Source: Nanopusillaceae archaeon (GTDB taxonomy: Archaea; Nanobdellota; Nanobdellia; Nanobdellales; Nanobdellaceae). Taken from it: a DNA stretch of 32,000 nt. Below, piece after piece: positions 13,759 through 26,913 of this stretch; positions within the stretch are counted from its first letter, which is position 1, and every line of letters begins with the position of its first letter. The DNA lies in NCBI GenBank assembly GCA_049974095.1, contig JBMFJD010000002.1, positions 30,001 to 62,000 on the forward strand, read 5' to 3'. Below the pieces are notes generated by a model. It was given only the letters and a program-made list of their open reading frames with translations. It ran no database searches and was not told where the DNA came from. Made by a program: the position numbers and the translations under genes.

Positions 13759-14580
13759 ATGTTTGCTCATGCACAAGGAGAATTTGAAAAATCAAAATGG
13801 ATAATTGTAGGAATTCCATCAGAAATCGGTAGTTTATCTCATATAAAAAACTATTTAGAAGGACCTGAAGCAATTAGAGATGCTTCATATAGAATTTTTT
13901 CTCCAATATTTGGAAAAATAAATATGGAAGAAATATATGATTATGGAGATATAGATTTAGAAGATATAAAAGATTTAAGTAAAGTTTATGAGAAAATATA
14001 TAATGAAGTAAAGAAAATATATAGGAAAGATAAAAAATATATTTTTTTAGGAGGAGATCATTCAATTACATATCCAATATTAAAAATAATAAAAGAAAAT
14101 TGGGAAGATTTTTATTTATTATATTTTGATGCTCATCCAGATATCCATCCAGATCCATATCCAAATTATCAAAGTTTTATTTATCATTTAATTAAAGAAG
14201 GATATTTGGATCCAAAGAAAATAATATATGTAGGAATATCAAATTTATCATTTGAAGAAAGAAATATAATTGAAGAATGGAAAATAAAATATTATAATCC
14301 ATTAAATACTTGGGATAATATAAAAGAAATATCAAAAGAAATATCTGAAATTTTATATAATAAAAATGTTTATATTTCAATTGATATTGATGTATTTGAA
14401 AATGGATGTGGACATTGGTTAGAAGGTTTTGGAATAAGACCATATCATTATTTTAAAATTATTAGTGAATTAAATATTAATTTAATTGGATTTGATTTAT
14501 TAGAATTATTCTCTAATGAAGTATGTGACAATTTAGCTGCAAAAATTATAATAGAAACAATATCTATTTTTAATAAATAG
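13759..14580 (+). CDS. Ureohydrolase family protein (agmatinase/arginase-like)
   Basis: Mn-binding motifs GGDHSITYP, FDAHPDIHPD and ISIDIDVFE. I prefer the ATG at 13759 (MFAHAQGEF...) over the TTG at 13723, which would share its first base with the divergent udg start codon. Confidence 0.75.
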   Translation: MFAHAQGEFEKSKWIIVGIPSEIGSLSHIKNYLEGPEAIRDASYRIFSPIFGKINMEEIYDYGDIDLEDIKDLSKVYEKIYNEVKKIYRKDKKYIFLGGDHSITYPILKIIKENWEDFYLLYFDAHPDIHPDPYPNYQSFIYHLIKEGYLDPKKIIYVGISNLSFEERNIIEEWKIKYYNPLNTWDNIKEISKEISEILYNKNVYISIDIDVFENGCGHWLEGFGIRPYHYFKIISELNINLIGFDLLELFSNEVCDNLAAKIIIETISIFNK

Positions 14581-15613
14581 TATTTCCATATGTAATATGT
14601 AAACATAATATAGATAGACCAAGAATTCCAAATATTAATAAATTAATTGTAAAAATTTGAATGGAGAGAATTATATTTGTTGTATAATAAAAGAAAATAA
14701 AATTAAGAAAAGAAATAAATAAAATAAATATACCCGAAATTATACCCAGATTTATTTTATTTTTATCTGGAAAATTATGATATAGATAAGAATGGATAGC
14801 AATAAAAAATAAGAAAATAAAGAAATTAATATTTTGGAGTAAATATATTATTGAATTTTTTATAATAAATAAAAGTACAGTAAAAAATATATATAAAATA
14901 AGAAATAAAAATGGAAAATACATTGTAAAATTCTCTTTTTTATTTTCAAATACTTCTTTAATTATAATTATTATAGGAATTTCTAAAAAAGAGAATAATC
15001 CTGCTATCATAATAAAAAATATATTAATAGAGAAGATAGATAAAATAAATTGGAGAGAAATTAAGAAAAAAATTAATAGAAAAATATAATCTTTATATTT
15101 TTCAATAGAATTTAATTTATATAAATAATAAATTTTCTTATCATTTAAATTAAGCAAAAAGATTAATATAGATAATAAAAATAAGGAAAAAAGATTGATA
15201 TATTTTAAATAAAAAATAATTGTTGAATAAAAATAGATTATGAATAAAAAAATTATCTGTTTTCTATTTATAGATAGTTTATTTTCTCCAAAGAAATTTC
15301 CAATAAAATAAAATAAAAGAAAAAATGATAGAACATAGGAAAAATATTTAAATAATATATTATTAAAATTTAGAAAAAATAATTGGATTATTATTATAAT
15401 GTATGAGATTTTTATCATATTTATTTTAGTATAATTAATAAAAAAGTATAAAATAATAGAATAAAATATAAAGAAAACTAAATAAAAATAAAAATATGGA
15501 TTACTAATATAGAATGATAAGATAAATATTGATAAAATAATATAAATTATGTATAATTCAATATTGAAATATTTATTTTTATCAATTATCCTCTCTATAA
15601 AAGATTCATTCAT
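14570..15613 (-). CDS. Polytopic membrane protein, paralogue A (last gene of the surface locus)
   Basis: 347 aa, about 9-10 TM helices. Clearly paralogous to 17533-18696: NYTKINMIKISYIIIIIQLF vs KYTKSNTIKIIYILIIFQIF; EKYKDYIFLLIFFLISLQFILS vs DKYKKYIFMLIYFIILIQIILS; KKENFTMYF vs KRENFTIYF; IHSYLYHNFPDKNKINLGI vs IHYGLYKKYPDPLKKSLGI. Confidence 0.55.
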   Translation of the reverse strand: MNESFIERIIDKNKYFNIELYIIYIILSIFILSFYISNPYFYFYLVFFIFYSIILYFFINYTKINMIKISYIIIIIQLFFLNFNNILFKYFSYVLSFFLLFYFIGNFFGENKLSINRKQIIFLFIIYFYSTIIFYLKYINLFSLFLLSILIFLLNLNDKKIYYLYKLNSIEKYKDYIFLLIFFLISLQFILSIFSINIFFIMIAGLFSFLEIPIIIIIKEVFENKKENFTMYFPFLFLILYIFFTVLLFIIKNSIIYLLQNINFFIFLFFIAIHSYLYHNFPDKNKINLGIISGIFILFISFLNFIFFYYTTNIILSIQIFTINLLIFGILGLSILCLHITYGNTIY

Positions 15614-15635
15614 AATAAATTTATATTTGGATATT

Positions 15636-15644: not shown

Positions 15645-16304
15645 TTATGCTATTCTTATTTCATTTTCTCCAACTCTTTCCAAATATACATTTACAGATT
15701 TATACAATGTAATATTATTTACAAAATAACAAGGTAAAATATTACATATAACTTGTCCATTATAATTTGTTGTACATATTTCATTTCCAGAAATATTCGT
15801 TGGAAATAGAAATATAAAATATTGATGAGCAAATGTTTGATTTTCTAAACAAAAAATATATACAAAATAATAGAAATCTGAATAGAAGTTTTTGCAAATT
15901 ATAATATTAATATAATTTAATGTAAAATTTATAGATATGGGATAAGATATTTTTTCACAATTTCCGATAAAATTTAATATTCCAAAAGAATAGTTTCCAA
16001 CATATGCTCTAAATGGATATGGAAATATTGCACATGTTGGTAAAGAATTTTGGTAAAAAATACTAAAATATTCTAGTTTATCTGTAGTTGTATAATATAT
16101 AGGATAACTTTGATATCCCAAACAATTTGGAGAAAATAGATCATATAATATATCTTGAGAATAAGAAAATGTATTTTTTTGAGCATAATTATATAGATTT
16201 ATTGAAGAAAAAATACCAGTAATTATTATTATTCCGACTAAAAATAATACAATTAATATTGTTATAAATGTAATAGAAAATTGATTTTTTATCATTGATT
16301 GCAA
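15645..16304 (-). CDS. Exported Cys-containing protein with a prepilin-like N-terminus
   Basis: The N-terminus is MQSMIKNQFSITFITILIVLFLVGIIIITGIF. Starting at Met4 (16295) gives an ATGA overlap with the upstream stop and the leader M-I-K-N-Q. QFSITF resembles the Q-x-S-x-E-F start of archaeal class III signal-peptide proteins. There are 8 Cys after the helix. Confidence 0.5.
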   Translation of the reverse strand: MQSMIKNQFSITFITILIVLFLVGIIIITGIFSSINLYNYAQKNTFSYSQDILYDLFSPNCLGYQSYPIYYTTTDKLEYFSIFYQNSLPTCAIFPYPFRAYVGNYSFGILNFIGNCEKISYPISINFTLNYINIIICKNFYSDFYYFVYIFCLENQTFAHQYFIFLFPTNISGNEICTTNYNGQVICNILPCYFVNNITLYKSVNVYLERVGENEIRIA

Positions 16305-17533
16305 TATGTATTTACTTGTATTTGAGATGGGCAGATTACTCCTTCAGCACAGTTTAAATTACATCCACACTGAACATTTATCCAACATACATAACATTGT
16401 GCTGGTATGGATTCATAGTATGTAAATTCTATAGTTTTAGTATTATTTTCTTTGGAAATAATTTGAGATGTTCCACATCCTTCTTGTGAATTACAAGAAT
16501 TTTGAGCATTTGTTAAATTACAAGTTAATGGCAAAGGAGTTATTATTTCATTATTTGTTGTATTAATTTGATATTCGCATTGATATTCACATATTTTATA
16601 TGCATATTGAGTAACATTCTGATAATATACTACAGAACTAATATATATTGATTGTGGTTTTGTTTTTCCTAAAAAATATACATTATATTGCGTATCTTCG
16701 CAATATAATCCTATAATACAGGCTATACCTTGAGGATATTGGCAAACTGTATTACATGTAGCATATGGTAAATCACATTGATATTTTGTTATACTTTCAT
16801 TGCATTTTATATATGGATTATTTGACATTTGTTCAAATATTTGAGCACATGTATTTTGAGGACTTTTTCCTTCTAATGCATTTATACAATCTTGTAAGGA
16901 ACATTGAGAAAAAACACCAGAAATAGAAAACGAATAAGATAAGTTATATAAATAAAATGCAGGATTGTTTGTTATATTTACAGAAATATTAAATGGAATA
17001 TAAGATCCAGAGCTATTACTTGTTGTTATTATAGTTAATCCATTAGCTTGTATTGGGAAATAATAATTGTATTCTCCTGAATTAATCTCGCTACAATTTC
17101 CAATTATTGATGCATTATAATTATTTGTAAAATTAACTGTTATACTATATGGATAATAAAAATTTAAAGCTTGTAAATTTGTTAATCCATAAGAAATAAC
17201 TGATTCATAATTTATTGTTAATAGATTATTATAATAATTTAATGCTTGTTGACATGAAGGGGGTAAATTGCATCCCTCTGGTACAGAAGCCCAAAAGGTA
17301 TCATTCCATGAAGTTACTCCAGCAAGATACGAACTACTATATCCTTGTTGAATTAAAGATGTATATAAATAACCTAAAAAATAATTTGAAAGAGTTATTG
17401 AAGATGTATATCTTACAAAAACCTGGTTTTGTTTGTATTGAAATGAAAGAGAATAAAATGTTAATAATATTACAATTATTATTAAAGCCAAAAATAGAAT
17501 TGTATATATAATTTCTGCCTGACTTTTCATCAT
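16292..17533 (-). CDS. Exported Cys-rich protein with a prepilin-like N-terminus (413 aa)
   Basis: MMKSQAEIIYTILFLALIIIVILLTFYSL, i.e. a K-S-Q leader followed by one long hydrophobic helix. There are 24 Cys, all after the helix, densest at the C-terminus (CYVCWINVQCGCNLNCAEGVIC). Many N-x-S/T sites. TAATG junction with the upstream gene. Confidence 0.5.
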   Translation of the reverse strand: MMKSQAEIIYTILFLALIIIVILLTFYSLSFQYKQNQVFVRYTSSITLSNYFLGYLYTSLIQQGYSSSYLAGVTSWNDTFWASVPEGCNLPPSCQQALNYYNNLLTINYESVISYGLTNLQALNFYYPYSITVNFTNNYNASIIGNCSEINSGEYNYYFPIQANGLTIITTSNSSGSYIPFNISVNITNNPAFYLYNLSYSFSISGVFSQCSLQDCINALEGKSPQNTCAQIFEQMSNNPYIKCNESITKYQCDLPYATCNTVCQYPQGIACIIGLYCEDTQYNVYFLGKTKPQSIYISSVVYYQNVTQYAYKICEYQCEYQINTTNNEIITPLPLTCNLTNAQNSCNSQEGCGTSQIISKENNTKTIEFTYYESIPAQCYVCWINVQCGCNLNCAEGVICPSQIQVNTYCNQ

Positions 17534-18696
17534 TATATTATTGAATGAAAATATAAAAATATTAATATTAAAACTGTCATCACAATACCATGTATTATTG
17601 ATAAAATTAGACTAATATTTGGAATATAAAATAGCGGTACAATAAAACTATCCATATTTGGAGGAATACCAAATATTGCAGATTCTAATAATTCTCCTAA
17701 AACTAATTGAATAAGAAATATTATACCTATTGTTATTCCTAAAGATTTTTTTAAAGGATCCGGATATTTTTTATATAAACCATAATGAATTCCTGAAAAA
17801 AACATAAATAAAGAAATTAAAATTCTAGTATGAAAGAAAAATGAATAATAATCTTGAAATAGAAAATAAAACTCTCCAAAAATAATTATTGAAGATAATA
17901 AAATAAGTAAGAAATATATTGTAAAATTTTCTCTTTTATTTTTTATTTTTCTATATATTAGATAGAATATGATGAATTCAAATATAGAAATAAATACTAA
18001 AGAAAAATCGAGATAGAATTTCCAGTTATTAGAAATTAAAAATATGTGTAAATAATAAAGAGATAAAATAATTTGAATTAATATTATAAAATAGATTAAC
18101 ATGAATATGTATTTTTTATATTTATCTATTTCATTTAATTTTATTATACTTAATTCATTTTTATCAATTGCATCTGTATAAAATAAAAGAGGAATTATTA
18201 AAAGAAAAGAAATAAAATAAATTAAAGAAAATAGATAGATATGAGACATTGAGAAATTATATATGTAAGCAATATATCTTGGTATTTTAACATCGATATC
18301 TCCATAAATCATTTGATAGATTGTTTCAAGAAAATAAACAAAAAAATAATAAATTATTGACGATATATATAATATCAATGATCTTTTTGAGAAATTAAAT
18401 CTCTTTTCTACGGAATAATATCCTAAAAGAAAATAGAATATATAAAAATATATATAATTTGTAAATAAGCCTCCTGAAAAATCTTTAAAATAAAATAAAC
18501 TAAAAATCTGGAAAATTATTAAGATATATATTATCTTTATTGTATTACTTTTAGTATACTTTAATAAGAAAAATAAAATAAACAAATATATAGAGCCAAA
18601 CAAAATAATATAATAGTTGAAACTTGATAATATAGAAAATAATAAAAATAAAAGCAAAAATATTGAAAAAAGAACTTTATTTATATTTTTTACCAT
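17533..18696 (-). CDS. Polytopic membrane protein, paralogue B
   Basis: 387 aa, about 10 TM helices and no Cys. Paralogous to 14570-15613 (motifs listed there). It overlaps the upstream stop by 7 nt. Confidence 0.55.
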   Translation of the reverse strand: MVKNINKVLFSIFLLLFLLFSILSSFNYYIILFGSIYLFILFFLLKYTKSNTIKIIYILIIFQIFSLFYFKDFSGGLFTNYIYFYIFYFLLGYYSVEKRFNFSKRSLILYISSIIYYFFVYFLETIYQMIYGDIDVKIPRYIAYIYNFSMSHIYLFSLIYFISFLLIIPLLFYTDAIDKNELSIIKLNEIDKYKKYIFMLIYFIILIQIILSLYYLHIFLISNNWKFYLDFSLVFISIFEFIIFYLIYRKIKNKRENFTIYFLLILLSSIIIFGEFYFLFQDYYSFFFHTRILISLFMFFSGIHYGLYKKYPDPLKKSLGITIGIIFLIQLVLGELLESAIFGIPPNMDSFIVPLFYIPNISLILSIIHGIVMTVLILIFLYFHSII

Positions 18697-20234
18697 ACTC
18701 TTAATATAGCAACAAGATATCCACCAAGAAATCCTGTATCTGTTGGATAATAGAAATCAAATACATATGTATTTACTCCTGGTGGGACTGGATATCCTAA
18801 ACTAATATATTTCCCATTTTCACGAAATAAAAATGCATTTAATTCTAGTTCTTTTCCATCTTTTGTTATACAATAAACTCTAGCCATTGCTATTCCATTG
18901 CTTCCATAATGAGGATCCCAATATGCAGCAGATATTTTTATATATGGTACATTTGGATCCCTATCATCTATAGCCCATTTTGTTATATTAAATTGATATA
19001 TTCCCCAAGAATTTATATTATCTCCTATTAAATATACTAAGGGACATTGTTTTCCAACAATAGTTCCATTTATATTTTCTACATTATCGTATACTCCAGT
19101 GGGACATGTTACATTACTGTAATTACAATCCGGATCTGCTGCTAAAAATATATAATCTGGTTGTCCTGTTTTGTTTACAAAAGCAATATATAATCTAATT
19201 ACCTCATGCCATGGATAGTCTATAAATAACTGTTGACAATCCGATGGTATATAAACTTTTCCTGTATAAAAAGAACCTACAATAACATATTTATTGTAAA
19301 CATCATTAAAACTTATTAATCCTAAATAATATGCTAGTAAATTAATATTTGTTGCAGTTTTATATGTTGGAGGATTTACATAATAGTGTCCTGTATTTTC
19401 ATTTACGCATCCATAATTATTGCATCCTTGGAAAAAATAAGGTAAGTTACTACTTGGAGAAACAGTTACCATGGATCCTTCATCTAAATCTTGAAACAGA
19501 GGCCATTCACCATTTGGACAGAATACAGAAGCCGGTGTAAAATTTTCTTGAGGAAATATTTTAGAAAGAGGTTCACATATATCTTTTTGTACTGAAGAAT
19601 ATGTACAAGTAGCAGGAGAATATAAACCATTTAATCCCCAATCAGGACATGAAAATTGCTGATGAAAAGGAGCAGTGGCATTTACCCATCCAGCTCCAGT
19701 TAAATTTAATATATTTCCATTTGGTGCTATAACAGTTTCTTGATAATTACTTACATAAAAATACGTATAATTCCATTCATACCATTTAAATTCATTATTA
19801 TCATTTGGAGGATTTATTTGACAACTATCCCAATCTCCTAAATTTCCTACAAATATAAACATATGAACAATCCATCCTGTTACCGGTGGTACAAAATATA
19901 CTGTTAAGTTCCATCTATTTCCATAAATACTCTCAAAATATTGTATAATATCTTGTGATATATTTGTGCAGATATTTTGATTTATACAATATGTATCATT
20001 TCCTGATGTACTCCAATATGATAATAAGAATGCATAGGATAAATTAACTATAGGATCATTTATATAAGGTAATAAAATTACACTATTTTGTATTGTTGAA
20101 GAATATTGCTCTATTGATGTTATATTTTGCTTTTTTATTGAATAATTATAAGAAATTAAAAAGTATAGAATTAAAGATAAAATTATTATTGCAGAAATAA
20201 TTATATAAAAAATAAAATTTATTTGATTTCTCAT
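18690..20234 (-). CDS. Large exported Cys-rich protein with a prepilin-like N-terminus (514 aa)
   Basis: MRNQINFIFYIIISAIIILSLILYF has nearly the same leader as the 143-aa protein at 20793-21224. There are 14 Cys, all after the helix, and many N-x-S/T sites. ATGA overlap with the upstream DUF333-like gene. Confidence 0.5.
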   Translation of the reverse strand: MRNQINFIFYIIISAIIILSLILYFLISYNYSIKKQNITSIEQYSSTIQNSVILLPYINDPIVNLSYAFLLSYWSTSGNDTYCINQNICTNISQDIIQYFESIYGNRWNLTVYFVPPVTGWIVHMFIFVGNLGDWDSCQINPPNDNNEFKWYEWNYTYFYVSNYQETVIAPNGNILNLTGAGWVNATAPFHQQFSCPDWGLNGLYSPATCTYSSVQKDICEPLSKIFPQENFTPASVFCPNGEWPLFQDLDEGSMVTVSPSSNLPYFFQGCNNYGCVNENTGHYYVNPPTYKTATNINLLAYYLGLISFNDVYNKYVIVGSFYTGKVYIPSDCQQLFIDYPWHEVIRLYIAFVNKTGQPDYIFLAADPDCNYSNVTCPTGVYDNVENINGTIVGKQCPLVYLIGDNINSWGIYQFNITKWAIDDRDPNVPYIKISAAYWDPHYGSNGIAMARVYCITKDGKELELNAFLFRENGKYISLGYPVPPGVNTYVFDFYYPTDTGFLGGYLVAILRVW

Positions 20235-20758
20235 TTTAGTATGTATGTTATTAATTCTATTGCTACTATAGAAATTCCAATTATTAAATAATTGCTATAA
20301 TTATTTTCATATAATTTTTGCATATTTTTATAATTTGTTAAATTTATTGTTGGAGGAATTGTTAGTGTAATATTAATAACATTTGTAGTATAATTTGCTG
20401 AAAATATAATATCGTTTAATGCATTTATAGGTATTAAACTATATGGAGAAACAGCAGTTCCATTTGGGTATACACAATAATAAGTTTGGTAAGTAACATT
20501 GTGGTAGATAGTTAAATTTAGAAAATATGTAGATAAATTAAAATGAGAACAAAAATTATATTGAACAGGAACATTTCCATTATAATAATCTATCGCATTA
20601 AATATTTTTCCATCTACAATACAATATTGTCCAGAAGAATTAACAAAATATGTTCCTCCACTATATTCACAAAATACTGCAAAAGGATTTCTTATTGAAT
20701 AAATTTTACTAAAAAATATTAGTAATAATAAAAATAAAAAATACTTTATTTTTTTCAT
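20231..20758 (-). CDS. Exported DUF333-like protein with a C-terminal TM anchor (175 aa)
   Basis: Signal peptide MKKIKYFLFLLLLIFFSKIYS. This is followed by NPFAVFCEYSGGTYFVNSSGQYCIVDGKIFNAIDYYNG, which fits the DUF333 pattern (NPA.vyC...GG......G..C...dG...eWa.yrG). C-terminal anchor YLIIGISIVAIELITYILK. 4 Cys. Confidence 0.5.
   Translation of the reverse strand: MKKIKYFLFLLLLIFFSKIYSIRNPFAVFCEYSGGTYFVNSSGQYCIVDGKIFNAIDYYNGNVPVQYNFCSHFNLSTYFLNLTIYHNVTYQTYYCVYPNGTAVSPYSLIPINALNDIIFSANYTTNVINITLTIPPTINLTNYKNMQKLYENNYSNYLIIGISIVAIELITYILK
20579..20661. repeat. 83-nt block nearly identical to 21884-21966 (copy 1)
   Basis: Base-by-base comparison shows a single mismatch (c at 20594 vs t at 21899). 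The 67 nt at 20595-20661 are identical to 21900-21966. The block encodes GGTYFVNSSGQYCIVDGKIFNAIDYYN in both paralogues. Confidence 0.85.
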
Positions 20759-20792: not shown

Positions 20793-21224
20793 TTAGCCGG
20801 CTCCTCCCATTATATTTTGTATAAATTGCAAAGAAGGAGTTATGTATAAATTATTTCCATATTTTAATATATAAATTTCTGATGGATAGATTAAAAAAGA
20901 TACATTTTCTTCATTATTATTTATCAAATATATTGTAGAATTATAAAAAATAACAGTATAATTATTTTCTTGATAATTTATTATTAATTCAGAATTATTT
21001 GAATATAAAATAATATCTTTTGGGACAGATAATTCAATATAGTAATTTCCATAAGATGTATAAATTGTATTTGCTAAGTTCTGTAAGTTTTGTAAAAATA
21101 TCGTAAATTCTTCTCTTTGCTGATTTTTTTGTAAATTCATTGAAAAAGAAAAATATATGCCAATAGCAATTCCAACAATTATTAATATTATTCCAAAATT
21201 AATAAAATTTATTTGATTCTTCAT
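20793..21224 (-). CDS. Small exported protein with a prepilin-like N-terminus (143 aa, no Cys)
   Basis: MKNQINFINFGIILIIVGIAIGIYF leader plus helix, then an Asn/Tyr/Ile-rich beta-type sequence. ATGA overlap with the upstream DUF333-like gene. Confidence 0.5.
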   Translation of the reverse strand: MKNQINFINFGIILIIVGIAIGIYFSFSMNLQKNQQREEFTIFLQNLQNLANTIYTSYGNYYIELSVPKDIILYSNNSELIINYQENNYTVIFYNSTIYLINNNEENVSFLIYPSEIYILKYGNNLYITPSLQFIQNIMGGAG

Positions 21225-22162
21225 TTTAGATAAAATAACAATATTATTAATCCAATTATCATAACAGAAATTGTTATTATTGCAGGTATTATAAAGTTAC
21301 TATTATTCATATTGTTATTTGTTAGATTTTCTTCATTTTTTATTATTTGTTGTACTAATGTATTATTTTGTTGTGTTTGATTTAAATAAATACATTGAAA
21401 CATTCCATAACAATTTACTTCTATTTTATTTGGTGGTGGACATTGTTTTTCAAATTCTTGATATAATTCTTCTAATGAATAATTCTGCGGACATAAGTAC
21501 CAAGGACTAAATGCGTTGCTATTGCATTTTCCGCATCCAACATATTCTCTATAAAATTCTATAGTTTGATTATAAGATCCAATATATAAATTTGGAGGAA
21601 TATATGGGGGATTAAAGCATGGATATGGGATATTAGAACATTGAGAAGCTTCCCAAGGAGTACTTGGGCATTGTAATATATTTGAACAATTTGATTGACC
21701 AATTTCTATAATATTTGAATTACTATTTAGATAATTTTCAAAGATAATATATGGTGAAATTAATGTTCCATTTGGATATTCACAATAGGATTCATATAAA
21801 GTAAAGTTTGATATATTTTCTTGTTTAATTACTAATGTTAAATTAAAATGAGAACAAAAAGAATATTGAGGTGGTACAAAATTATTATAATAATCTATTG
21901 CATTAAATATTTTTCCATCTACAATACAATATTGTCCAGAAGAATTAACAAAATATGTTCCTCCACCAATTTGGCAATATTCTTTGTATATTTGCTGAGA
22001 AAAAGCAGGAAAAAATAGAAATATTAAAAATATTAAGAAGATTTTTTTAATCATTTTAAGAATAAGTTGCTTCTTGTATTGTAACCATATACTGTGAAAA
22101 GTTTTCCCATAAAGTGTAGGCAATTCATTGTAATATGGTATATATAATAATCCATTTTTCAT
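21221..22162 (-). CDS. Exported DUF333-like Cys-rich protein with a C-terminal TM anchor (313 aa as ORF; 277 aa if it starts at 22054)
   Basis: The internal Met37 (ATG at 22054) begins a signal peptide, MIKKIFLIFLIFLFFPAFSQ. Next come YCQIGGGTYFVNSSGQYCIVDGKIFNAIDYYN (DUF333-like) and a Cys/Pro-rich region (CPSTPWEASQCSNIPYPCFNPPYIPP). C-terminal anchor IIPAIITISVMIIGLIILLFYLK. 14 Cys. The choice between starts at 22162 and 22054 is unresolved. Confidence 0.5.
   Translation of the reverse strand: MKNGLLYIPYYNELPTLYGKTFHSIWLQYKKQLILKMIKKIFLIFLIFLFFPAFSQQIYKEYCQIGGGTYFVNSSGQYCIVDGKIFNAIDYYNNFVPPQYSFCSHFNLTLVIKQENISNFTLYESYCEYPNGTLISPYIIFENYLNSNSNIIEIGQSNCSNILQCPSTPWEASQCSNIPYPCFNPPYIPPNLYIGSYNQTIEFYREYVGCGKCNSNAFSPWYLCPQNYSLEELYQEFEKQCPPPNKIEVNCYGMFQCIYLNQTQQNNTLVQQIIKNEENLTNNNMNNSNFIIPAIITISVMIIGLIILLFYLK
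21884..21966. repeat. 83-nt block nearly identical to 20579-20661 (copy 2)
   Basis: See copy 1. One mismatch in 83 nt, whereas the flanking coding sequence of the two paralogues is much more diverged. Confidence 0.85.
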
Positions 22163-22179
22163 ATAATATAGATATTCCT

Positions 22180-22950
22180 CTATATTAATTCATCCTGTAT
22201 AGTTTCTCTGCTATTTCCTTCATTATCCTTTGCATTAATTACTATATTATATATACCTGCATTAATAGAGTTTGGTATACTAATTGTAGATGAAATTGTA
22301 CAAGATGAAAAAGTTATACAAGATGTTTGATTAAGAGAACATGCAATTCCATTTGGTGATATGCATGAAAATGATATATTATATGGAGTATTTTGAGGTA
22401 GATTTTCTTGCGCAGTTATATATATACTTGTGGATCCTCCAGATTGCAATGTTATTAGAGAATTATTTGGATATAAATAAATAATTCCTTTTATACTATA
22501 AGTTTGCTGATAGTTTAGCTCTCCTAAACTTATTATAATACTGTTTGGAGAATTTTTTTCAATTATTAAAGGTAATACTTCATAATTTTTTCCATAAAAT
22601 GATGTATAATAAATTCCCGAAGTATAATATTGGATTAAATTATTTGTAGTATTTATATAAACTAAGCATGGAAATGAATAATTATAATATGTATTATATA
22701 TATAACATGTAACAGTATTTCCATTTGAAGAAACATAATTTAAATACTTATTTACTTTAAAATTGAGATAAATAGTAGTTCCATTATTTGAATAGCATAC
22801 TTGTTGAATAGTATTAAATAAATTTTGACATTCAGATATTTCAGTATAAATTTCTTCTGTTTGATAATTTATATTAGTAAATTTAAAATATAATAATAAA
22901 GATAAGCTAAAAACAATAATACTTATTATTATCCAAAACCATTTTTCCAT
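22180..22950 (-). CDS. Exported or signal-anchored Cys-containing protein (256 aa)
   Basis: N-terminal hydrophobic helix MEKWFWIIISIIVFSLSLLLYF and 8 Cys after it. The C-terminal part has a beta-sandwich-like motif (NAGIYNIVINAKDNEG). I recognise no family. Confidence 0.45.
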   Translation of the reverse strand: MEKWFWIIISIIVFSLSLLLYFKFTNINYQTEEIYTEISECQNLFNTIQQVCYSNNGTTIYLNFKVNKYLNYVSSNGNTVTCYIYNTYYNYSFPCLVYINTTNNLIQYYTSGIYYTSFYGKNYEVLPLIIEKNSPNSIIISLGELNYQQTYSIKGIIYLYPNNSLITLQSGGSTSIYITAQENLPQNTPYNISFSCISPNGIACSLNQTSCITFSSCTISSTISIPNSINAGIYNIVINAKDNEGNSRETIQDELI

Positions 22951-22982: not shown

Positions 22983-23390
22983 CTATCCTTGTAATTGGAT
23001 ATATACATATTCTCCAGTAGAGTAAACTAATATATAATCTCCAGAATTTATTGTATAATTGCAATTTTGCATAACAACACTAGGATTAATTTGATTTACT
23101 AAATTAATTAAATCTTGACATGTAAAAGATTTTCCTTGATACGAAATTAGATAACATAATCCATTTTCTTTTTTTTCATAACAAGAAATTATATCCAAAG
23201 CTATAGTATCAATTGACGATACATTTGTTTCAACAATAGTTTGCGTATTATTGTATTTAGGTAATGTATGATTAATAAAAGATGTTATATTTCCTTTAAA
23301 GTAATATATAATTCCAATTATTGTTAAAGTAACAATAATACCTATTATTATTAAAAACGTTAAGCTTACAGGCATTTCCTGATTTTTCAT
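22983..23390 (-). CDS. Small exported protein with a prepilin-like N-terminus (135 aa)
   Basis: MKNQEMPVSLTFLIIIGIIVTLTIIGIIYYF leader plus helix. 4 Cys after the helix. Confidence 0.5.
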   Translation of the reverse strand: MKNQEMPVSLTFLIIIGIIVTLTIIGIIYYFKGNITSFINHTLPKYNNTQTIVETNVSSIDTIALDIISCYEKKENGLCYLISYQGKSFTCQDLINLVNQINPSVVMQNCNYTINSGDYILVYSTGEYVYIQLQG

Positions 23391-23419: not shown

Positions 23420-23899
23420 TTATTGCCATAAAATGATATTGCTATTATTATATATAATAAATAAACTATTGTATGGATAAATTATTTCATCATTATTCTT
23501 TAAATGGAATTCTAAATTATTAATATTGAATGTAGAGTAATTTTCAAGATAATTTGTTATATTTGTTAAATTTAAACTAATATTTTCATCTATATAGATA
23601 TCATAACAAATATTAAATAAAGTATTTTTGTCTATATTATTATAATAGCAATTTATTATAAATCCAGAGATATCAGAGATAATTTCATCCTCAGTTTGAT
23701 TTGTAAATATAATACTTATTGCTGATGGGTAATATTTTATACATGAAGGGGAAAATCCACCCTCAGAAATTAATGTTTTGCAGTAATATAATTGAGAATT
23801 TGCAAAAAATTTTGTATATACAATATCTAATATTACAAATACCGATATTATCGCAATAATTATAATAAATGTAGTATCTATTGCTATGTCAGTTTTCAT
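23420..23899 (-). CDS. Small exported protein with an N-terminal hydrophobic helix (159 aa)
   Basis: MKTDIAIDTTFIIIIAIISVFVILDIVY. 4 Cys after the helix. ATGA overlap with the upstream gene. Confidence 0.45.
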   Translation of the reverse strand: MKTDIAIDTTFIIIIAIISVFVILDIVYTKFFANSQLYYCKTLISEGGFSPSCIKYYPSAISIIFTNQTEDEIISDISGFIINCYYNNIDKNTLFNICYDIYIDENISLNLTNITNYLENYSTFNINNLEFHLKNNDEIIYPYNSLFIIYNNSNIILWQ

Positions 23900-24183
23900 A
23901 TATAACTAATATTACCTTCATAAATATATATTATTCTATATCCTGCGGGAATTGTTATATTATTGATTGTACAATTTTCTGTTAAATATATTTTTTCATC
24001 AATTATTTTATAATAACTTTCATTATATAATTTATATAATTGATTGCAATTTAATGTTATTACATTATTTTCACCATTTATATTTTTATTAACTTTGTAA
24101 ATATATGAAAATGCAAAAATAGATGCTACAACAATTAGTATAAAACTTATTATTGCCCAATAAATATATTGTTGGTTTTTCAT
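23896..24183 (-). CDS. Small exported protein with a prepilin-like N-terminus (95 aa)
   Basis: MKNQQYIYWAIISFILIVVASIFAF leader plus helix. 2 Cys. ATGA overlap with the upstream platform-like gene. Confidence 0.45.
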   Translation of the reverse strand: MKNQQYIYWAIISFILIVVASIFAFSYIYKVNKNINGENNVITLNCNQLYKLYNESYYKIIDEKIYLTENCTINNITIPAGYRIIYIYEGNISYI

Positions 24184-26150
24184 AATTGTATTGTAGTTGG
24201 TAAATATGGGCCAAATATAGTATATACTAACATTATACCCAATAATGAAAATATTACATAAAATATCGTTCCTGTTATTAAATTTCTTCCTACGTAATAT
24301 GAAATCATTGTACTATCAAATCCATATTTTATTCCTGCAGTCATAAAAGAAGTAATAGCTACATATTCTATAAAAAATATTCCTATTATTGCTTCAAAAT
24401 ATGTTGGAGGAATAAGGTTATAGAGATTAAATGTATTTACAATAAAATTGTATAAGCTAAATGATCCTCCAATACCCAACGATTGGCTAATCATTTGAAA
24501 AAAATATGCAATTGCAAATAATATTGATACAATAGCATTATTAAATACTGTTACTAATGAAGAAATAAATGGAATTAGATCTCTAGATGTTATATCTAGC
24601 ATATTTACTATTTCATTCAATATTTTTCTTACATTATATCTTATATTCATAACATTTTCTAAATTATATGATATATTATATGTAATCTGAGACAAAACTT
24701 GTGGACCTTTTGGCAGAGAAAGAACTATTAATTGCATTGTTTCTCCAATTAATTTTGATGGATAATAGTTTAAAGATCCAATTTTTCTATCAAAAATTGA
24801 TGTGACTAGATCATATCCCTTTCTTAAATTATATAATGTAATTTTTAGAAATCTTTCCATTACTCCAGATGACTTTATTATTTTATAGTTATCATATGTT
24901 TTTTGTATTACAGCCTCCATTGGATATCCATCTTCTAATAATGATGCAAATTCATATGTAACAATTGGAAATTCATTTTCTATTTCTTCTATTTGATTTA
25001 TTCTTTTTACTTTTTGGAAAGATACTAAATAGTAATATGAACCAATTCCTAATCCCAAACCCAAAGGTAACATTAATGTTAAAAATGAATATATTAATGC
25101 TCTATCCTGATAAACAATATTTAAATAATCACTAAGATCCCCCTGAGGTAAAAACAAGATTTTTAATGATAAAGCAATTAAATGATATATTCCTAATATT
25201 GCAATAGATCCCAATATAATTGAAACAATTATTGCTGGAATTTCTTTATTTCCAATTTTAAATTTTCCAGGAGAAGGTAAATCTTTAGATAAAGATAAAT
25301 CTGGAACTGAAAATGCAAATGGATTTCTAGATAATAGATTTTGTATAAATAAGAATGTTATTACAGGTAAAATAATTATATAACTAAATGCAATAAAATA
25401 AAAACTTACAGTATTTAATAGAAATATCGATAATATTGGTAATATTATTAAACTAATTAGCGGCATCATAACTAAAAAAGAAACAATAACTGTAGCAGGT
25501 TGCTTTAATTCATCTACATAATTTTGAGATCTTTCTAATGATTTCTTTAATATCCAATTTAATATTCTATCTACTAATTTGTTTATTTCTTCAACAGAGT
25601 TCTTATATTTTATATTTATTAAATGAGTCATTGCATATACAAAATCTGGACTCAAGTAAAACCATCTATATTGATAAAATTGAATTGCAGACTCTATATC
25701 TTTAAACCTATTTGTTTCTAAATCATAAATTAGTTTTTTGAAATCATCGGCAATTACACCTTTCATATAATATGCAACATATTGTATTGCGCCTTCTAAA
25801 TTTGGATTCCTTTTAATATATAAGGATAAATATAAAATTATCCAAACAATTTCAGAAGTTGCTTGTATTTTTACAATTTGTGTATATAATATTGGATAGT
25901 ACATTAAGTATAAATCCAGTATTATTAATGATATTAATAAAGAAAATGCTAGTTGAAAAGAAACAAAGCTTAATATAAAAAATATTACTATAGAAAATAT
26001 TAATAATGTTATTGTGGAGGAAAATATTTTGTTAGGATCTGTATTTAATTTATTTAACCATAAATGAAATGCATATAATTTATATATTGGTTGAGGGGCT
26101 CTTAATTTAATTAATGCAAAATTATTATAAAAATTTTCAAAAAAAGACAT
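24180..26150 (-). CDS. FlaJ/TadC/PilC-like (T2SS-F family) polytopic membrane platform protein, putative
   Basis: 656 aa with a duplicated architecture of two soluble helical segments, each followed by TM bundles. The segments are roughly ...NPNLEGAIQYVAYYMKGVIADDFKKLIYDLETNRFKDIESAIQFY...SPDFVYAMTHLINI... and ...FPIVTYEFASLLEDGYPMEAVIQKTYDNY...SGVMERFLKITLYNLRKGYDLVTSIF...YPSKLIGETMQLIVLS.... This arrangement is seen in archaeal FlaJ/TadC. Its position amid prepilin-like genes supports the call, which rests on pattern recognition rather than an alignment. Confidence 0.55.
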   Translation of the reverse strand: MSFFENFYNNFALIKLRAPQPIYKLYAFHLWLNKLNTDPNKIFSSTITLLIFSIVIFFILSFVSFQLAFSLLISLIILDLYLMYYPILYTQIVKIQATSEIVWIILYLSLYIKRNPNLEGAIQYVAYYMKGVIADDFKKLIYDLETNRFKDIESAIQFYQYRWFYLSPDFVYAMTHLINIKYKNSVEEINKLVDRILNWILKKSLERSQNYVDELKQPATVIVSFLVMMPLISLIILPILSIFLLNTVSFYFIAFSYIIILPVITFLFIQNLLSRNPFAFSVPDLSLSKDLPSPGKFKIGNKEIPAIIVSIILGSIAILGIYHLIALSLKILFLPQGDLSDYLNIVYQDRALIYSFLTLMLPLGLGLGIGSYYYLVSFQKVKRINQIEEIENEFPIVTYEFASLLEDGYPMEAVIQKTYDNYKIIKSSGVMERFLKITLYNLRKGYDLVTSIFDRKIGSLNYYPSKLIGETMQLIVLSLPKGPQVLSQITYNISYNLENVMNIRYNVRKILNEIVNMLDITSRDLIPFISSLVTVFNNAIVSILFAIAYFFQMISQSLGIGGSFSLYNFIVNTFNLYNLIPPTYFEAIIGIFFIEYVAITSFMTAGIKYGFDSTMISYYVGRNLITGTIFYVIFSLLGIMLVYTIFGPYLPTTIQL

Positions 26151-26157
26151 TTTAAAT

Positions 26158-26913
26158 TTATGTTAGACCGTTTAGTTGCTGATATGGTATCTGTAGTAGG
26201 AATTCACATAGTGGTATTCCTAAGCTATTATTTACTATATTTAATTTTGAGCAATTTCCTGTTACATATAATGTTTGATTTATTACTTGTAAACTTAAAT
26301 TACATCCATTATTTGTATTATAATAATTTAATACTTTTAATAACGCTACAAATACCTGATCTGTAATCCATGTTGGTATCATTCCTGAACATTGTTGTGG
26401 TCCTGGATATAATATTTGATTTTGAGAAGGTGCAGAGAAATATATATTTGCTGTTTGTGTTTGTACATTAAATGATGTTAATGGAGAGTAATTACCAAAT
26501 ACTAATGATGTAGCTTTCTCTGGAGATTTTTGTAAAGTATTAATATAATATTGACATTCAATATACATACAATCTAATGGGGTTACAGGATATCCTTCAT
26601 ATGTACATTGATTATTCGATCCCCCATATAATTGCAAAATTACACTACAAGGTACAGAATTTGCACATAAATAATATCCTGGTTGTGGTTCTATAATACC
26701 TTGTCCTATTGTTTCATATTTTGAGCAAAAAAATGATATACTCTGACATTCACTTATGCAATCGCTCACCGCTTGTTGTATTTCTGTATTAGATATTTTT
26801 GAAATATTTGAAGATTGTTGCTGGAATAATTTTATTACTATTACTGCTACTACTAACATAATTAATATTACGAAAATCAATTCAACAGCCATTTCTATAG
26901 ATCTCTTTTTCAT
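26158..26913 (-). CDS. Prepilin-like (class III signal peptide) Cys-rich exported protein; first gene of the locus
   Basis: MKKRSIEMAVELIFVILIMLVVAVIVIKLF resembles euryarchaeal pilin/archaellin-type signal peptides (compare the KKGQIAMELGIL type): a basic leader, a small residue, then an acidic-punctuated hydrophobic helix. 12 Cys after the helix. The gene lies 7 nt upstream of the FlaJ-like gene. Confidence 0.55.
   Translation of the reverse strand: MKKRSIEMAVELIFVILIMLVVAVIVIKLFQQQSSNISKISNTEIQQAVSDCISECQSISFFCSKYETIGQGIIEPQPGYYLCANSVPCSVILQLYGGSNNQCTYEGYPVTPLDCMYIECQYYINTLQKSPEKATSLVFGNYSPLTSFNVQTQTANIYFSAPSQNQILYPGPQQCSGMIPTWITDQVFVALLKVLNYYNTNNGCNLSLQVINQTLYVTGNCSKLNIVNNSLGIPLCEFLLQIPYQQLNGLT

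What the first reader, a model, noticed from the sequence alone, without database searches (positions are those of the whole stretch)
14570..26913. 12.3-kb, 14-gene surface locus: FlaJ/TadC-like platform, eleven exported Cys-rich proteins and two paralogous polytopic proteins, with no ATPase or prepilin peptidase in cis
Fourteen co-directional minus-strand genes are packed with ATGA/TAATG overlaps or spacers of at most 34 nt, and none is a recognisable housekeeping function. The content falls into three groups. (i) A 656-aa polytopic protein with the duplicated soluble-domain plus TM-bundle layout of T2SS-F/FlaJ/TadC platform proteins. (ii) Eleven proteins of 95-514 aa. Each begins either with a very short charged leader and one long hydrophobic helix (class-III/prepilin-like or signal-anchor) or with a classical signal peptide plus a C-terminal anchor. 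Their ectodomains are Cys-rich, sequon-dense and rich in Asn and Tyr, and I can assign them to no family except for a DUF333-like module in two. (iii) Two paralogous polytopic proteins of 347 and 387 aa. No FlaI/PilB/VirB11-type ATPase is present; the only Walker A motif I see in the window is GDPGTGKS in LonB. There is also no A24 prepilin peptidase and no FlaF/G/H-like set. The locus is therefore not a canonical archaellum or a known archaeal adhesive-pilus operon. About 38% of this very compact window is spent on lineage-specific surface proteins. My inference is a non-canonical type-IV-pilus-like filament or attachment apparatus, for example for contact with a host cell or substrate.
Basis: partly seen in the sequence, partly recalled or inferred. 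Interest (0 to 1): 0.85.

Follow-up and report, generated by a model that had tools for sequence, protein, structure and literature searches.

The report
Nanoarchaeal pilus locus lacking its motor
This 12-kb gene cluster of a tiny parasitic archaeon encodes the membrane platform and about nine pilin-like subunits of a type-IV-pilus-like surface machine, but not its ATPase motor. It is conserved in every cultured relative that builds a still unidentified "attachment organelle" on its host.

Summary
There are 14 co-directional minus-strand genes at 14570-26913, with spacers of -13 to +34 nt. No secretion ATPase or A24 peptidase lies anywhere in the 32-kb window.

The window comes from a Nanopusillaceae archaeon (order Nanobdellales, about 23% GC).

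- **Platform.** The 656-aa protein is a very divergent T2SS-F/TadC-type platform. Its nearest outside relatives (25-28% identity, E about 1e-57) reach Pfam T2SSF. In 5 of 5 loci they lie beside or within 2 kb of a ~755-aa T2SSE ATPase.
- **Pilin-like proteins.** Eight proteins carry class-III-like leaders of the form M-[KR]-[N/S/G/A]-Q followed by a hydrophobic helix. A ninth carries a degenerate leader.
- **Other products.** Two proteins are Sec-exported, C-terminally anchored and DUF333-like. Two are lineage-restricted paralogs of about 12 TM helices and unknown function.

The whole locus is syntenic in Nanobdella aerobiophila, YN1 and two other relatives, and never has an ATPase. The platform evolves as slowly as housekeeping neighbours (dN/dS 0.09). 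Congeneric Nanopusillus genomes encode T2SSE ATPases elsewhere, one with pilin-like genes and no platform in the sequence held.

In relatives, a papain-like protease is fused to a pilin-like N-terminus; here that domain is deleted.

Verdict: a new variant of a known kind. Its function, host contact, is inferred.

The parts
26158..26913 (-). g14, 251 aa. First gene of the cluster and best candidate for a canonical pilin. Leader MKKRS|IEMAVELIFVIL; 12 Cys.
   Evidence: Orthologue leaders are MKKRG|IDMAVEL (N. aerobiophila) and MRKRA|LDMAIQL (L005), so G/A/S sits at -1 and the M-A-x-x-L-x-F core is invariant. A single N-terminal TM is predicted. No Pfam or PDB hit.
24180..26150 (-). g13, 656 aa. 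Divergent T2SS-F/TadC-type platform protein with about 9 TM helices and two cytoplasmic helical domains.
   Evidence: Homologues at 25-28% identity (E about 1e-57) include P0012, which passes PF00482 (40.8 bits, two stretches), and P0009 (24.2 bits on the first domain). The family profile matches the GspF cytoplasmic domain at E=0.07. AF2 model: pLDDT 85, pTM 0.83. dN/dS is 0.094 against YN1. In outgroup loci the homologue lies beside or within 2 kb of a T2SSE ATPase, 5 of 5.
23896..24183 (-). g12, 95 aa. Small pilin-like protein, leader MKNQ; 2 Cys.
   Evidence: Orthologues occur in all five genomes.
23420..23899 (-). g11, 159 aa. Pilin-like protein, leader MKTD; 4 Cys.
22983..23390 (-). g10, 135 aa. 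Pilin-like protein, leader MKNQ; 4 Cys.
22180..22950 (-). g9, 256 aa. N-terminal helix with a degenerate leader (MEKWFW) and a weak Ig-like (DUF4625) C-terminal end. It is the truncated remainder of a gene that in YN1 continues into a papain-like protease.
   Evidence: Residues 1-247 match YN1 579-aa protein residues 1-242 at 63% identity. The YN1 protein has Peptidase_C1 at residues 304-500 (66 bits). DUF4625 scores 21.9 bits, below the cut-off.
22091..22171 (-). Relic of the C-terminal end of the deleted Peptidase_C1 gene. It had been read as the start of the g8 ORF.
   Evidence: tblastn maps YN1 579-aa residues 543-569 to window 22171-22091. Residues 244-542 have no counterpart anywhere in the window.
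21221..22051 (-). g8, 276 aa from M38. Sec-type signal, DUF333-like module, Cys-rich ectodomain (14 Cys) and a C-terminal TM anchor.
   Evidence: 61% identical to the YN1 283-aa protein, which starts MMKKVLLLFF.
20793..21224 (-). g7, 143 aa. Pilin-like protein, leader MKNQ; no Cys. The same module forms the N-terminus of the C1 protease in N. aerobiophila and L005.
20231..20758 (-). g6, 175 aa. Sec-type signal, DUF333-like module and a C-terminal TM anchor. It is a shortened paralog of g8.
   Evidence: DUF333 E=1.3e-4, 22.6 bits, below the cut-off of 25. Similarity to g8 orthologues. Fastest-evolving gene of the locus, dN/dS 0.65.
18690..20234 (-). g5, 514 aa. Largest pilin-like protein, leader MRNQ; 14 Cys and 15 sequons. 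Candidate adhesin or tip subunit.
   Evidence: 42-69% identical in all five genomes, with 139 invariant columns. No Pfam or PDB relative.
17533..18696 (-). g4, 387 aa. Polytopic protein with about 12 TM helices, a lineage-restricted paralog of g1. Function unknown.
   Evidence: Paralogy. Only 12 relatives among 1.84 billion representatives. Invariant residues are F258, H304, G320 and H384, with no invariant Asp, Glu or Cys. AF2 model pLDDT 61 with no fold match.
16292..17533 (-). g3, 413 aa. Pilin-like protein, leader MMKSQ; 24 Cys and 13 sequons.
   Evidence: dN/dS 0.50.
15645..16295 (-). g2, 216 aa from the ATG at 16295. Pilin-like protein, leader MIKNQ; 8 Cys.
   Evidence: Orthologues start MKNQF or MKSQF.
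14570..15613 (-). g1, 347 aa. Polytopic paralog of g4 and last gene of the cluster, convergent with the arginase-family gene.
   Evidence: The same boundary is seen in N. aerobiophila.

Best explanation
The locus is the platform-plus-subunit half of a type-IV-filament (archaeal T4P-like) machine, specific to the order Nanobdellales.

Proposed mechanism:
- g13 is the polytopic T2SS-F/TadC-type platform.
- g14, g12, g11, g10, g7, g5, g3 and g2, and in degenerate form g9, are inserted in the membrane by an N-terminal hydrophobic helix.
- Their short basic leader (M-[KR]-[G/A/S/N], then Q or I) is probably cut off.
- The subunits are then stacked on the platform into a pilus or short pseudopilus. 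The large Cys- and glycan-rich ectodomains (g5, g3), and in relatives a papain-like protease, are displayed on it.
- g6 and g8 are separate Sec-exported, C-terminally anchored surface proteins.
- g1 and g4 are accessory membrane proteins of unknown role.
- The hexameric ATPase that must drive assembly is encoded elsewhere in the genome.
- The likely biological role is adhesion to, or work on, the surface of the host archaeon.

Shown: gene content, platform homology, leader conservation, synteny, purifying selection, absence of the ATPase in cis, and presence of T2SSE ATPases elsewhere in congeners.

Inferred: leader cleavage, filament formation, which ATPase is used, and the role in host contact.
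For: **Platform**
- establish family membership through homologues.
- The AF2 model is confident and the topology has two soluble domains.
- A weak, in-register internal duplication is detectable.

**Context of the nearest outside homologues**
- In 5 of 5 loci (L003, L126, L127, L038, L125) the homologue lies beside or within 2 kb of a ~755-aa PF00437 ATPase.
- In L003 seven small genes follow it, six with a basic leader and hydrophobic start (several KKG|Q/E/F), and an A24 peptidase lies 9 kb away.

**Leaders**
- Across 28 pilin-like N-termini of four Nanobdellales genomes, the residue after the last K/R is N (12), S (10), A (2) or G (1), and the next residue is Q in 20.
- In N. aerobiophila the same genes have G or A at that position in 3 of 8 cases, for example MKKRG|IDMAVEL.

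**Conservation**
- The whole locus is syntenic between the DUF371 gene and the arginase-family gene in N. aerobiophila and in YN1 as far as the fetched sequence reaches. L004 and L005 are syntenic to their contig ends.
- dN/dS is 0.09 for g13 and 0.13-0.65 for the other genes.

**ATPases in trans**
- N. acidilobi has a 515-aa T2SSE ATPase next to a 277-aa T2SSF protein and two pilin-like genes with the same leader style.
- Nanopusillus sp. DS.bin.8 has a 594-aa PilB3-like T2SSE ATPase flanked by pilin-like genes, with no platform in the 8 kb held.
- A related single-cell reference genome lists three COG0630 ATPases (PMC6142677 supplement).

**Literature**
- Nanoarchaeota are said to have two T4P systems plus an archaellum and four FlaJ/TadC homologues (PMC6142677).
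- Nanoarchaeal T4P ATPases have unidentified cognate pilins (PMC4858521).
Against: - The window protein itself gives no direct Pfam or NCBIfam hit.
- Foldseek against PDB found nothing significant for the model. The best-probability hit was a PilC model at 0.54.
- hhalign against a bona fide Nanopusillus TadC is weak (E=0.026).
- Most leaders have N or S, not G or A, at the putative cleavage site.
- An A24 prepilin peptidase was not found in the window. It is reported missing from two nanoarchaeal genomes (PMC4858521), so processing is unproven.
- The rest of this MAG could not be searched, so an ATPase in this very genome is not shown.
- A platform separated from its ATPase departs from the rule stated for archaeal TFF loci (bioRxiv 10.64898/2026.04.22.720090).
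Confidence: 0.6

Rival explanations
1. This is a bindosome-like or pseudopilus display system rather than a long pilus. The platform assembles a short membrane-proximal stalk, and the point of the machine is to hold functional ectodomains at the cell surface. These would be the g5 and g3 adhesins and, in relatives, the papain-like protease. The model is the Sulfolobus Bas system, where class-III-signal proteins are enzymes or binding proteins.
For: - Several 'pilins' are far larger than structural pilins: 413, 514 and, in relatives, 436-579 aa.
- A Peptidase_C1 domain passing Pfam's cut-off is fused to a pilin-like N-terminus in four relatives, either to the g7 module or to the g9 module.
- Class-III signals on non-filament proteins are widespread in archaea (bioRxiv 10.64898/2026.04.22.720090).
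Against: - Five small pilin-like proteins of structural-pilin size (95-159 aa) are conserved in the locus.
- Nothing distinguishes a short from a long polymer at sequence level.
- The window itself has lost the protease domain yet keeps everything else under purifying selection.
Confidence: 0.22
2. This is not a type-IV-filament machine at all. It would be an operon of ordinary signal-anchored, glycosylated envelope proteins, for example S-layer-associated or cone components. g13 would then be a platform-derived membrane protein that has lost its ATPase partnership and does something else.
For: - No ATPase in cis in any of 5 Nanobdellales loci.
- No A24 peptidase detected.
- Non-canonical -1 residues in most leaders.
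- g13 is too divergent for a direct family hit.
Against: - g13 is the most conserved gene of the locus (86% to YN1, dN/dS 0.09) and keeps both cytoplasmic domains, which in this family are the ATPase-binding part.
- The leader motif is conserved across eight or nine unrelated ectodomains and reverts to canonical G or A in N. aerobiophila. That pattern is hard to explain for mere signal anchors.
Confidence: 0.12
3. The locus is an accessory part of the archaellum, using FlaI and archaellar FlaK-type processing.
For: YN1, N. aerobiophila and N. acidilobi make archaella and encode Fla/Arl genes elsewhere (PMC11420986; PMC11104419; PMC4935971).
Against: - No archaellin, FlaF/G or FlaH signature in any of the 14 proteins.
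- The nearest homologues of g13 pair with ~755-aa non-archaellar ATPases in loci without archaellins.
- A separate COG1955 FlaJ exists in a related genome.
Confidence: 0.04

Closest known systems
T4P-like loci of Woesearchaeales and other DPANN archaea: a ~755-aa T2SSE ATPase, a ~720-aa platform and a row of KKG|Q-type pilins (e.g. GCA_018652475.1, locus L003)
   Same: The platform is homologous over about 90% of its length (E about 1e-57). It is followed by a run of small genes with a short basic leader and a hydrophobic helix, often with Q at +1.
   Different: In those loci the ATPase is adjacent or within 2 kb (5 of 5), and an A24 peptidase is nearby in L003. Here the ATPase is uncoupled in 5 of 5 Nanobdellales loci. 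The pilin ectodomains share no detectable similarity. The two ~12-TM paralogs and the DUF333-like anchored proteins are additions.
Euryarchaeal Epd-type pili (Methanococcus maripaludis, EppA-processed pilins with Q at +1; from my own knowledge, and 'system 1' in the TFF preprint)
   Same: A short basic leader, a small residue, then Q at +1. Many different pilin genes sit in one locus.
   Different: Epd systems have their own ATPase, a split platform and a dedicated A24 peptidase (EppA). Here -1 is mostly N or S, and no peptidase is known in the lineage.
Haloferax volcanii PilB/PilC systems with pilins encoded elsewhere (from my own knowledge; Makarova et al. 2016, PMC4858521)
   Same: They set a precedent for the parts of one archaeal T4P machine being scattered over the genome and shared between ATPase/platform pairs.
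   Different: There the ATPase and platform stay together and the pilins are dispersed. Here the platform stays with the pilins and the ATPase is elsewhere.
Sulfolobus bindosome assembly system (Bas; from my own knowledge; bindosomes)
   Same: Class-III-type N-termini sit on proteins whose job is enzymatic or binding rather than filament building. Compare the pilin-like N-terminus fused to Peptidase_C1 in relatives.
   Different: Bas has BasE (ATPase) next to BasF (platform), and its substrates are sugar-binding proteins rather than Cys-rich proteins or proteases.
Second T4P locus of Nanopusillus acidilobi (CP010514.1, about 537-540 kb): two pilin-like genes, a 515-aa ATPase and a 277-aa single-domain TadC
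   Same: Same lineage and same leader style (MKSI..., MKTQ...).
   Different: It is a complete minimal core with the ATPase in cis and a half-size platform. It has no large ectodomain proteins and no polytopic paralogs.

Membership tests
T2SS-F / PilC / TadC / FlaJ platform family (PF00482) | Sequence match to the T2SSF domain, present twice | tested here: met
   There is no direct hit, but the transitive link is sound. P0012 matches the window protein at E=4.5e-57 with 95% coverage, and scores 40.8 bits against a cut-off of 25.2, with two stretches. P0009 hits the first domain at 24.2 bits. The family profile matches the GspF cytoplasmic domain at E=0.07 on the second domain.
T2SS-F / PilC / TadC / FlaJ platform family (PF00482) | Polytopic topology with two cytoplasmic helical domains, each followed by TM helices | tested here: met
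   Hydropathy places TM segments at about 40-89, 217-274, 302-370, 528-551, 587-605 and 623-650. The AF2 model is all-helical with pLDDT 85. Comparing the two halves gives a weak in-register match at E=0.12.
T2SS-F / PilC / TadC / FlaJ platform family (PF00482) | Structural similarity to solved or modelled platform proteins | tested here: inconclusive
Archaeal type IV filament (TFF/T4P) system | T2SSE-family ATPase in the locus | tested here: not met
   None is found in the window by Pfam, Walker A scan or tblastn. None is found in the four syntenic loci.
Archaeal type IV filament (TFF/T4P) system | T2SSE-family ATPase somewhere in the same genome | not testable with these tools
   The rest of this MAG could not be reached. 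Congeners have such ATPases: N. acidilobi 515 aa (PF00437, 4e-35) and Nanopusillus sp. 594 aa (2e-35). A related reference genome lists three COG0630 genes.
Archaeal type IV filament (TFF/T4P) system | Subunits with a class III signal peptide: short basic leader, G/A/S at -1, about 20 hydrophobic residues | tested here: inconclusive
   The architecture is met in 8-9 proteins. The -1 residue is canonical (S, G or A) in g14 and its orthologues. Across 28 leaders it is N (12), S (10), A (2) or G (1). No FlaFind or cleavage data are available.
Archaeal type IV filament (TFF/T4P) system | A24 prepilin peptidase (two Asp, GxGD motif) | tested here: not met
   There is no PF01478 hit and no GxGD motif in any polytopic ORF of the window. 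The literature reports none in two nanoarchaeal genomes. The whole genome was not testable.
Archaellum | Archaellin (PF01917), FlaF/G, FlaH and FlaI next to FlaJ | tested here: not met
   No such hits among the 14 proteins or the flanking genes.
Peptidase A24 or archaeosortase, as the identity of the g1/g4 paralogs | Invariant catalytic Asp pair (A24), or Cys/Arg/His (archaeosortase) | tested here: not met
   In the alignment of 10 family members the only invariant residues are F258, H304, G320 and H384. g4 has no Cys.
DUF333 (PF03891), for g6 and g8 | Pfam match above the gathering score | tested here: inconclusive
   g6 scores 22.6 bits against a cut-off of 25 (E=1.3e-4). g8 has no hit but shares the module with g6 orthologues at 59-71% identity.
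Bindosome-like display system | Functional (enzyme or binding) domains carried on class-III-type N-termini | tested here: inconclusive
   This is met in relatives: Peptidase_C1 scores 44-89 bits behind a pilin-like N-terminus in YN1, L004 and L005, and Peptidase_C1 is precomputed for N. aerobiophila. In the window the domain is deleted.

The most novel reading that the evidence does not exclude
The locus may encode extracellular parts of the Nanobdellales 'attachment organelle', whose molecular identity is explicitly unknown. The candidate structures are the 7-8 nm tube or filament that passes through the cone portal into the host, or the second, 15-nm rough appendage.

In this reading:
- a T4P-like polymer is assembled on an ATPase-uncoupled platform;
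- its tip carries Cys-rich adhesins and, in most species, a pilin-anchored papain-like protease that opens the host S-layer;
- its subunits are matured by a peptidase that is not of the A24 family, conceivably the two His-bearing polytopic paralogs g1 and g4.
Probability: 0.12. Interest if true: 0.9.

Novelty: new variant of a known kind. Interest (0 to 1): 0.55.

Why it matters
Nanobdellales (Nanoarchaeota in the strict sense) are the best-studied archaeal ectoparasites. Three recent cryo-ET studies describe a cone, portal and filament 'attachment organelle', and all state that its components are unknown.

This locus is a concrete, testable candidate set:
- It has 13-14 genes and is conserved in N. 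aerobiophila, YN1 and Nanopusillaceae MAGs; the platform gene alone was also found in Nanobsidianus and Nanopusillus.
- Almost all of its genes are annotated 'hypothetical'.
- The published surface-protein survey would have missed it, because that survey considered only proteins with detectable signal peptides.

It also bears on two open points in archaeal type-IV-filament biology:
- whether a platform can work with an ATPase encoded elsewhere or shared with another system;
- how class-III-type leaders are processed in a lineage where no A24 peptidase has been found.

The recurrent fusion of a papain-like protease to a pilin-like N-terminus suggests a way for the parasite to breach a host S-layer.

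Tried and rejected
- **Direct family assignment.** Pfam and NCBIfam searches of all 14 proteins gave only sub-threshold noise, apart from DUF333 and DUF4625 just below their cut-offs.
- **Polytopic paralogs g1/g4.**
  - The word-indexed search found only 3 relatives.
  - The exhaustive profile search found 12 in 1.84 billion representatives.
  - The AF2 model had pLDDT 61 and gave no fold match.
  - I considered a divergent A24 prepilin peptidase, prompted by 'YGDIDVK' in g4, and rejected it. That segment is deleted in g1 and not conserved in the L004 orthologue, and no acidic residue is invariant.
  - Archaeosortase was rejected because g4 has no Cys.
  - GT-C type glycosyltransferase was rejected because no invariant acidic residue is present.
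- **C-terminal anchors of g6 and g8 as PGF-CTERM-like sorting signals.** Rejected: no conserved motif precedes the TM helix.
- **Ectodomain profiles.** Profiles of g5 and g14 orthologues against PDB sequences found nothing, as did single-sequence searches with g5 and g8.
- **Looking for the Nanopusillaceae ATPase by homology search with the L003 ATPase.** The 120 rows listed were all relatives at 61% identity or more; the named ones were Woesearchaeota, Nanoarchaeota or unclassified archaea, none Nanopusillaceae.
- **Fourth FlaJ/TadC homologue in the Jarett et al. supplement.** A search by gene length failed.
- **Supplements of the YN1, YN4 and N. aerobiophila papers.** They held no usable gene tables.
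- **RNA genes.** No tRNA or Rfam feature in the window.

Full report
**Origin and observation**

The window has about 23% G+C. The 656-aa protein is 100% identical to a hypothetical protein of a 'Nanopusillaceae archaeon' MAG, and 86% identical to YN1_4460 of the cultured Nanobdellota archaeon YN1. Flanking genes are archaeal housekeeping genes:
- RpoH, RpoB and a RimK-type ATP-grasp gene on one side;
- an arginase-family gene, UDG, LonB, TFB, a proteasome subunit and SBDS on the other.

The fourteen minus-strand ORFs exist as described. They overlap by 1-13 nt or are 7-34 nt apart.

The absence of a motor and a peptidase in cis is solid:
- The only Walker A motif in six frames is in LonB.
- Three different T2SSE ATPases used as tblastn queries find nothing.
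- No Pfam T2SSE, A24 or archaellin hit occurs.
- No GxGD motif lies in a polytopic ORF.

**The platform**

The 656-aa protein (g13) gives no direct Pfam or NCBIfam hit. Its homologues fall into two groups:
- orthologues at 54-100% identity;
- a group of 672-743-aa DPANN proteins at 25-28% identity, E about 1e-57, covering about 90% of the length.

Of the second group, P0012 passes Pfam T2SSF (40.8 bits, cut-off 25.2, two stretches). P0009 hits with its first cytoplasmic domain (24.2 bits). A profile of the family matches the crystallised cytoplasmic domain of GspF at E=0.07, on the second soluble domain.

Other lines of evidence:
- Hydropathy gives about nine TM helices around two soluble domains.
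- The AlphaFold model is confident (pLDDT 85, pTM 0.83) and all-helical.
- The two halves align weakly in register (E=0.12).
- hhalign against a genuine Nanopusillus TadC is weak (E=0.026).

I accept family membership on the transitive sequence evidence and on context. In five of five loci of the 25-28% group, the platform lies beside or within 2 kb of a ~755-aa PF00437 ATPase (L003, L126, L127, L038, L125). In L003 seven small genes follow it, six with a basic leader and hydrophobic start (several KKG|Q/E/F), and an A24 peptidase with a GGGDAK motif lies 9 kb away.

**The exported proteins**

Nine proteins have a single N-terminal hydrophobic helix behind a very short leader. In g2, g3, g5, g7, g10 and g12 the leader is M-(x)-[KR]-[N/S]-Q. 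In g11 it is MKTD, and in g14 it is MKKRS|IEMAVEL.

Across 28 such N-termini from four genomes, the residue after the last basic residue is N (12), S (10), A (2), G (1) or another residue (3). The next residue is Q in 20.

In Nanobdella aerobiophila the same genes read MKKRG|IDMAVEL, MKAQ, MAMKGQ, MKSQ and MRNQ. The canonical G or A is therefore present in three of eight. This is what one expects of class III signal peptides whose -1 glycine or alanine has drifted to Asn or Ser.

The shared motif across unrelated ectodomains argues against plain signal anchors. g9 has only M-E-K before the helix, although its L004 orthologue has MRNQ.

g6 and g8 are different. They have a Sec-type signal, a DUF333-like module (22.6 bits, just under the cut-off, in g6), a Cys-rich ectodomain and a C-terminal anchor.

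Every Cys-containing exported protein has an even number of cysteines: 2, 4, 4, 4, 8, 8, 12, 14, 14 and 24. This is consistent with disulfide-bonded extracellular domains. No ectodomain has a detectable relative in Pfam, NCBIfam or PDB sequences.

**The polytopic paralogs**

g1 and g4 are paralogs (E=1e-10). An exhaustive profile search of 1.84 billion representatives found 12 family members in total. In an alignment of ten members, the only invariant residues are two His, one Phe and one Gly. That excludes an A24 aspartic peptidase or a Cys-dependent archaeosortase. The model is of low confidence (pLDDT 61, about 12 helices) and matches nothing. Their role is unknown.

**Conservation**

The locus is syntenic, gene for gene, in:
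- YN1 (AP031373.1);
- N. aerobiophila MJ1 (AP019769.1);
- two further assemblies.

In N. aerobiophila it lies between the DUF371 gene and the convergent arginase-family gene. The YN1 stretch fetched ends inside the g1 orthologue, and L004 and L005 are truncated by contig ends. Orthologues of g13 also occur in Nanobsidianus stetteri and several Nanopusillus MAGs. None of the five loci has an ATPase.

Against YN1, dN/dS is 0.094 for g13. The flanking RimK and DUF371 genes give 0.145 and 0.055. The other locus genes give 0.13-0.65, highest for g6 and g3 (dS is near saturation, so the values are rough). The platform is thus a constrained, functional gene and not a relic.

**Where is the motor?**

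I could not search the rest of this MAG.
- N. acidilobi (CP010514.1) carries two pilin-like genes (MKSI..., MKTQ...), a 515-aa T2SSE ATPase (4e-35) and a 277-aa T2SSF protein (8e-15).
- Nanopusillus sp. DS.bin.8 carries a 594-aa T2SSE ATPase (2e-35, with a weak PilB3_C match). It is preceded by three small genes (a 120-aa gene and two pilin-like genes of 279 and 126 aa). No platform lies in the 4.5 kb downstream; the upstream side is cut after 1.7 kb.

That ATPase without a platform in the 8 kb held is the mirror image of the platform here, and is the obvious candidate partner. This is inference.

The supplement of Jarett et al. 2018 lists three COG0630 ATPases in a closely related reference genome: 1785, 1494 and 2244 bp. 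[quoted passage not shown] Makarova et al. 2016 noted nanoarchaeal T4P ATPases whose pilins could not be identified, and the absence of an A24 peptidase in two nanoarchaea.

**Mechanism proposed**

The steps are as follows:
1. The subunits are inserted in the membrane.
2. Their leaders are removed by an unidentified peptidase.
3. They are polymerised on g13 by an ATPase encoded in trans.
4. The product is a pilus or short pseudopilus that displays large glycosylated, disulfide-rich ectodomains.

In four relatives a Peptidase_C1 domain (44-89 bits in YN1, L004 and L005; precomputed hit in N. aerobiophila) sits behind a pilin-like N-terminus. In N. aerobiophila and L005 (L004's N-terminus could not be assigned to either module) this is the g7 module; in YN1 it is the g9 module. 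The apparatus therefore evidently carries a protease in most species. In this window the domain has been deleted, leaving a 256-aa g9 and an 81-nt relic of the 3' end.

The bindosome-like reading (display rather than filament) is a close rival that sequence alone cannot separate.

**Comparison with the known, and novelty**

The kind of system is known: an archaeal type IV filament system. The literature already notes T4P-related genes in Nanoarchaeota. The YN4 preprint lists 'adhesive type IV pili' genes, one of which (YN4_417) is probably this platform, judging by its relative genome position; I did not verify that.

What is not described:
- this locus as a unit;
- the uncoupling of platform and ATPase, 0 of 5 here against 5 of 5 in the nearest relatives, and contrary to the rule stated in the 2026 TFF survey;
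- the N/S-type leaders in a lineage without a known class III peptidase;
- the two restricted polytopic paralogs;
- the pilin-anchored papain-like protease.

The N. aerobiophila surface-protein study considered only proteins with recognisable signal peptides. I rate the finding a new variant of a known kind.

**The more novel reading**

Cryo-ET of N. aerobiophila, YN1 and YN4 shows a cone, a portal and a 7-8 nm tube or filament reaching into the host, together with a second 15-nm appendage. All are of unknown composition. A conserved, lineage-restricted T4P-like locus with adhesin-like and protease-bearing subunits is a reasonable candidate for one of these structures. Nothing here links them directly, so I give this reading about 12%.

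Noticed in passing
window 22091-22207 (between g9 and g8): A Peptidase_C1 (papain-like) domain of about 300 aa is present in the orthologous gene of YN1, and in neighbouring genes of N. aerobiophila, L004 and L005. In this window it is deleted. g9 ends after the part matching YN1 residues 1-243. An out-of-frame 81-nt relic matching residues 543-569 had been read as the start of g8. This could be a real lineage-specific loss or a MAG assembly artefact.
   Followed up: yes
L001 13201-14940; L004 13579-15087; L005 13612-14922; L128 13615-15123: The papain-like protease is fused to a pilin-like N-terminal helix in all four relatives, but to different modules. In N. aerobiophila and L005 it is g7-like, and in YN1 it is g9-like. 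This implies domain shuffling inside the locus. In YN1 and the window, g7 and g6 look like a truncated duplicate of the (g7-C1, g8) pair.
   Followed up: partly
L025 (Ca. Nanopusillus sp. DS.bin.8, JAWDMD010000001.1:40001-48000), 4531-7961: A 594-aa T2SSE ATPase with a weak PilB3_C match lies in a four-gene run: a 120-aa gene, a 279-aa pilin-like gene, a 126-aa pilin-like gene, then the ATPase. No platform gene occurs in the sequence held. It is the mirror image of the ATPase-less platform in the window and a candidate partner.
   Followed up: partly
window 7265-11545 (+): The 1426-aa ORF looks like two surface proteins in one reading frame. Residues 1-~525 run from a signal peptide to a C-terminal TM anchor. 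At residue 521 (nt 8825) a new signal-peptide-like start, MRKKKIFLLIILPLILLYFIHS, begins a second Asn/Tyr/sequon-rich protein with its own C-terminal anchor. There is no stop codon between them. It may be an S-layer-type protein pair.
   Followed up: partly
window g-proteins compared with L128 (N. aerobiophila) orthologues: The putative -1 residue of the class-III-like leaders is G or A in several N. aerobiophila genes, but N or S in the window, YN1 and L005 orthologues. The substitutions G (GGN) to S (AGY) to N (AAY) would fit pressure from the extreme A+T bias (inference; G+C was measured only for the window), and would imply a processing enzyme tolerant of Asn.
   Followed up: partly
window 4363-5325 (-) and 921-1577 (+): Two further polytopic proteins of 320 aa and 218 aa have no family assignment. 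The 218-aa protein ends in a Gly-rich tail, GGETQKGGGGGTQAKSK. Neither has a GxGD motif.
   Followed up: no
(ATPases of the L003 type, P0032-P0151): The ~755-aa DPANN ATPase partnered with the platform family is 60-85% conserved, while the platform is only about 25% conserved to the window protein. It has unusual motifs: Walker A GTRSSGKTS and AGTIHGG instead of the usual TGH...T.HA His box. Some members (about 1270 aa) carry intein or homing-endonuclease Pfam domains (PF14528, PF14890).
   Followed up: no
window 17215-17511 (+), 14192-14443 (-), 1849-2349 (+) and similar: Antisense ORFs of 80-166 aa lie inside real genes. They appear to be by-products of the A+T-rich, low-complexity sequence and should not be counted as genes.
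   Followed up: no
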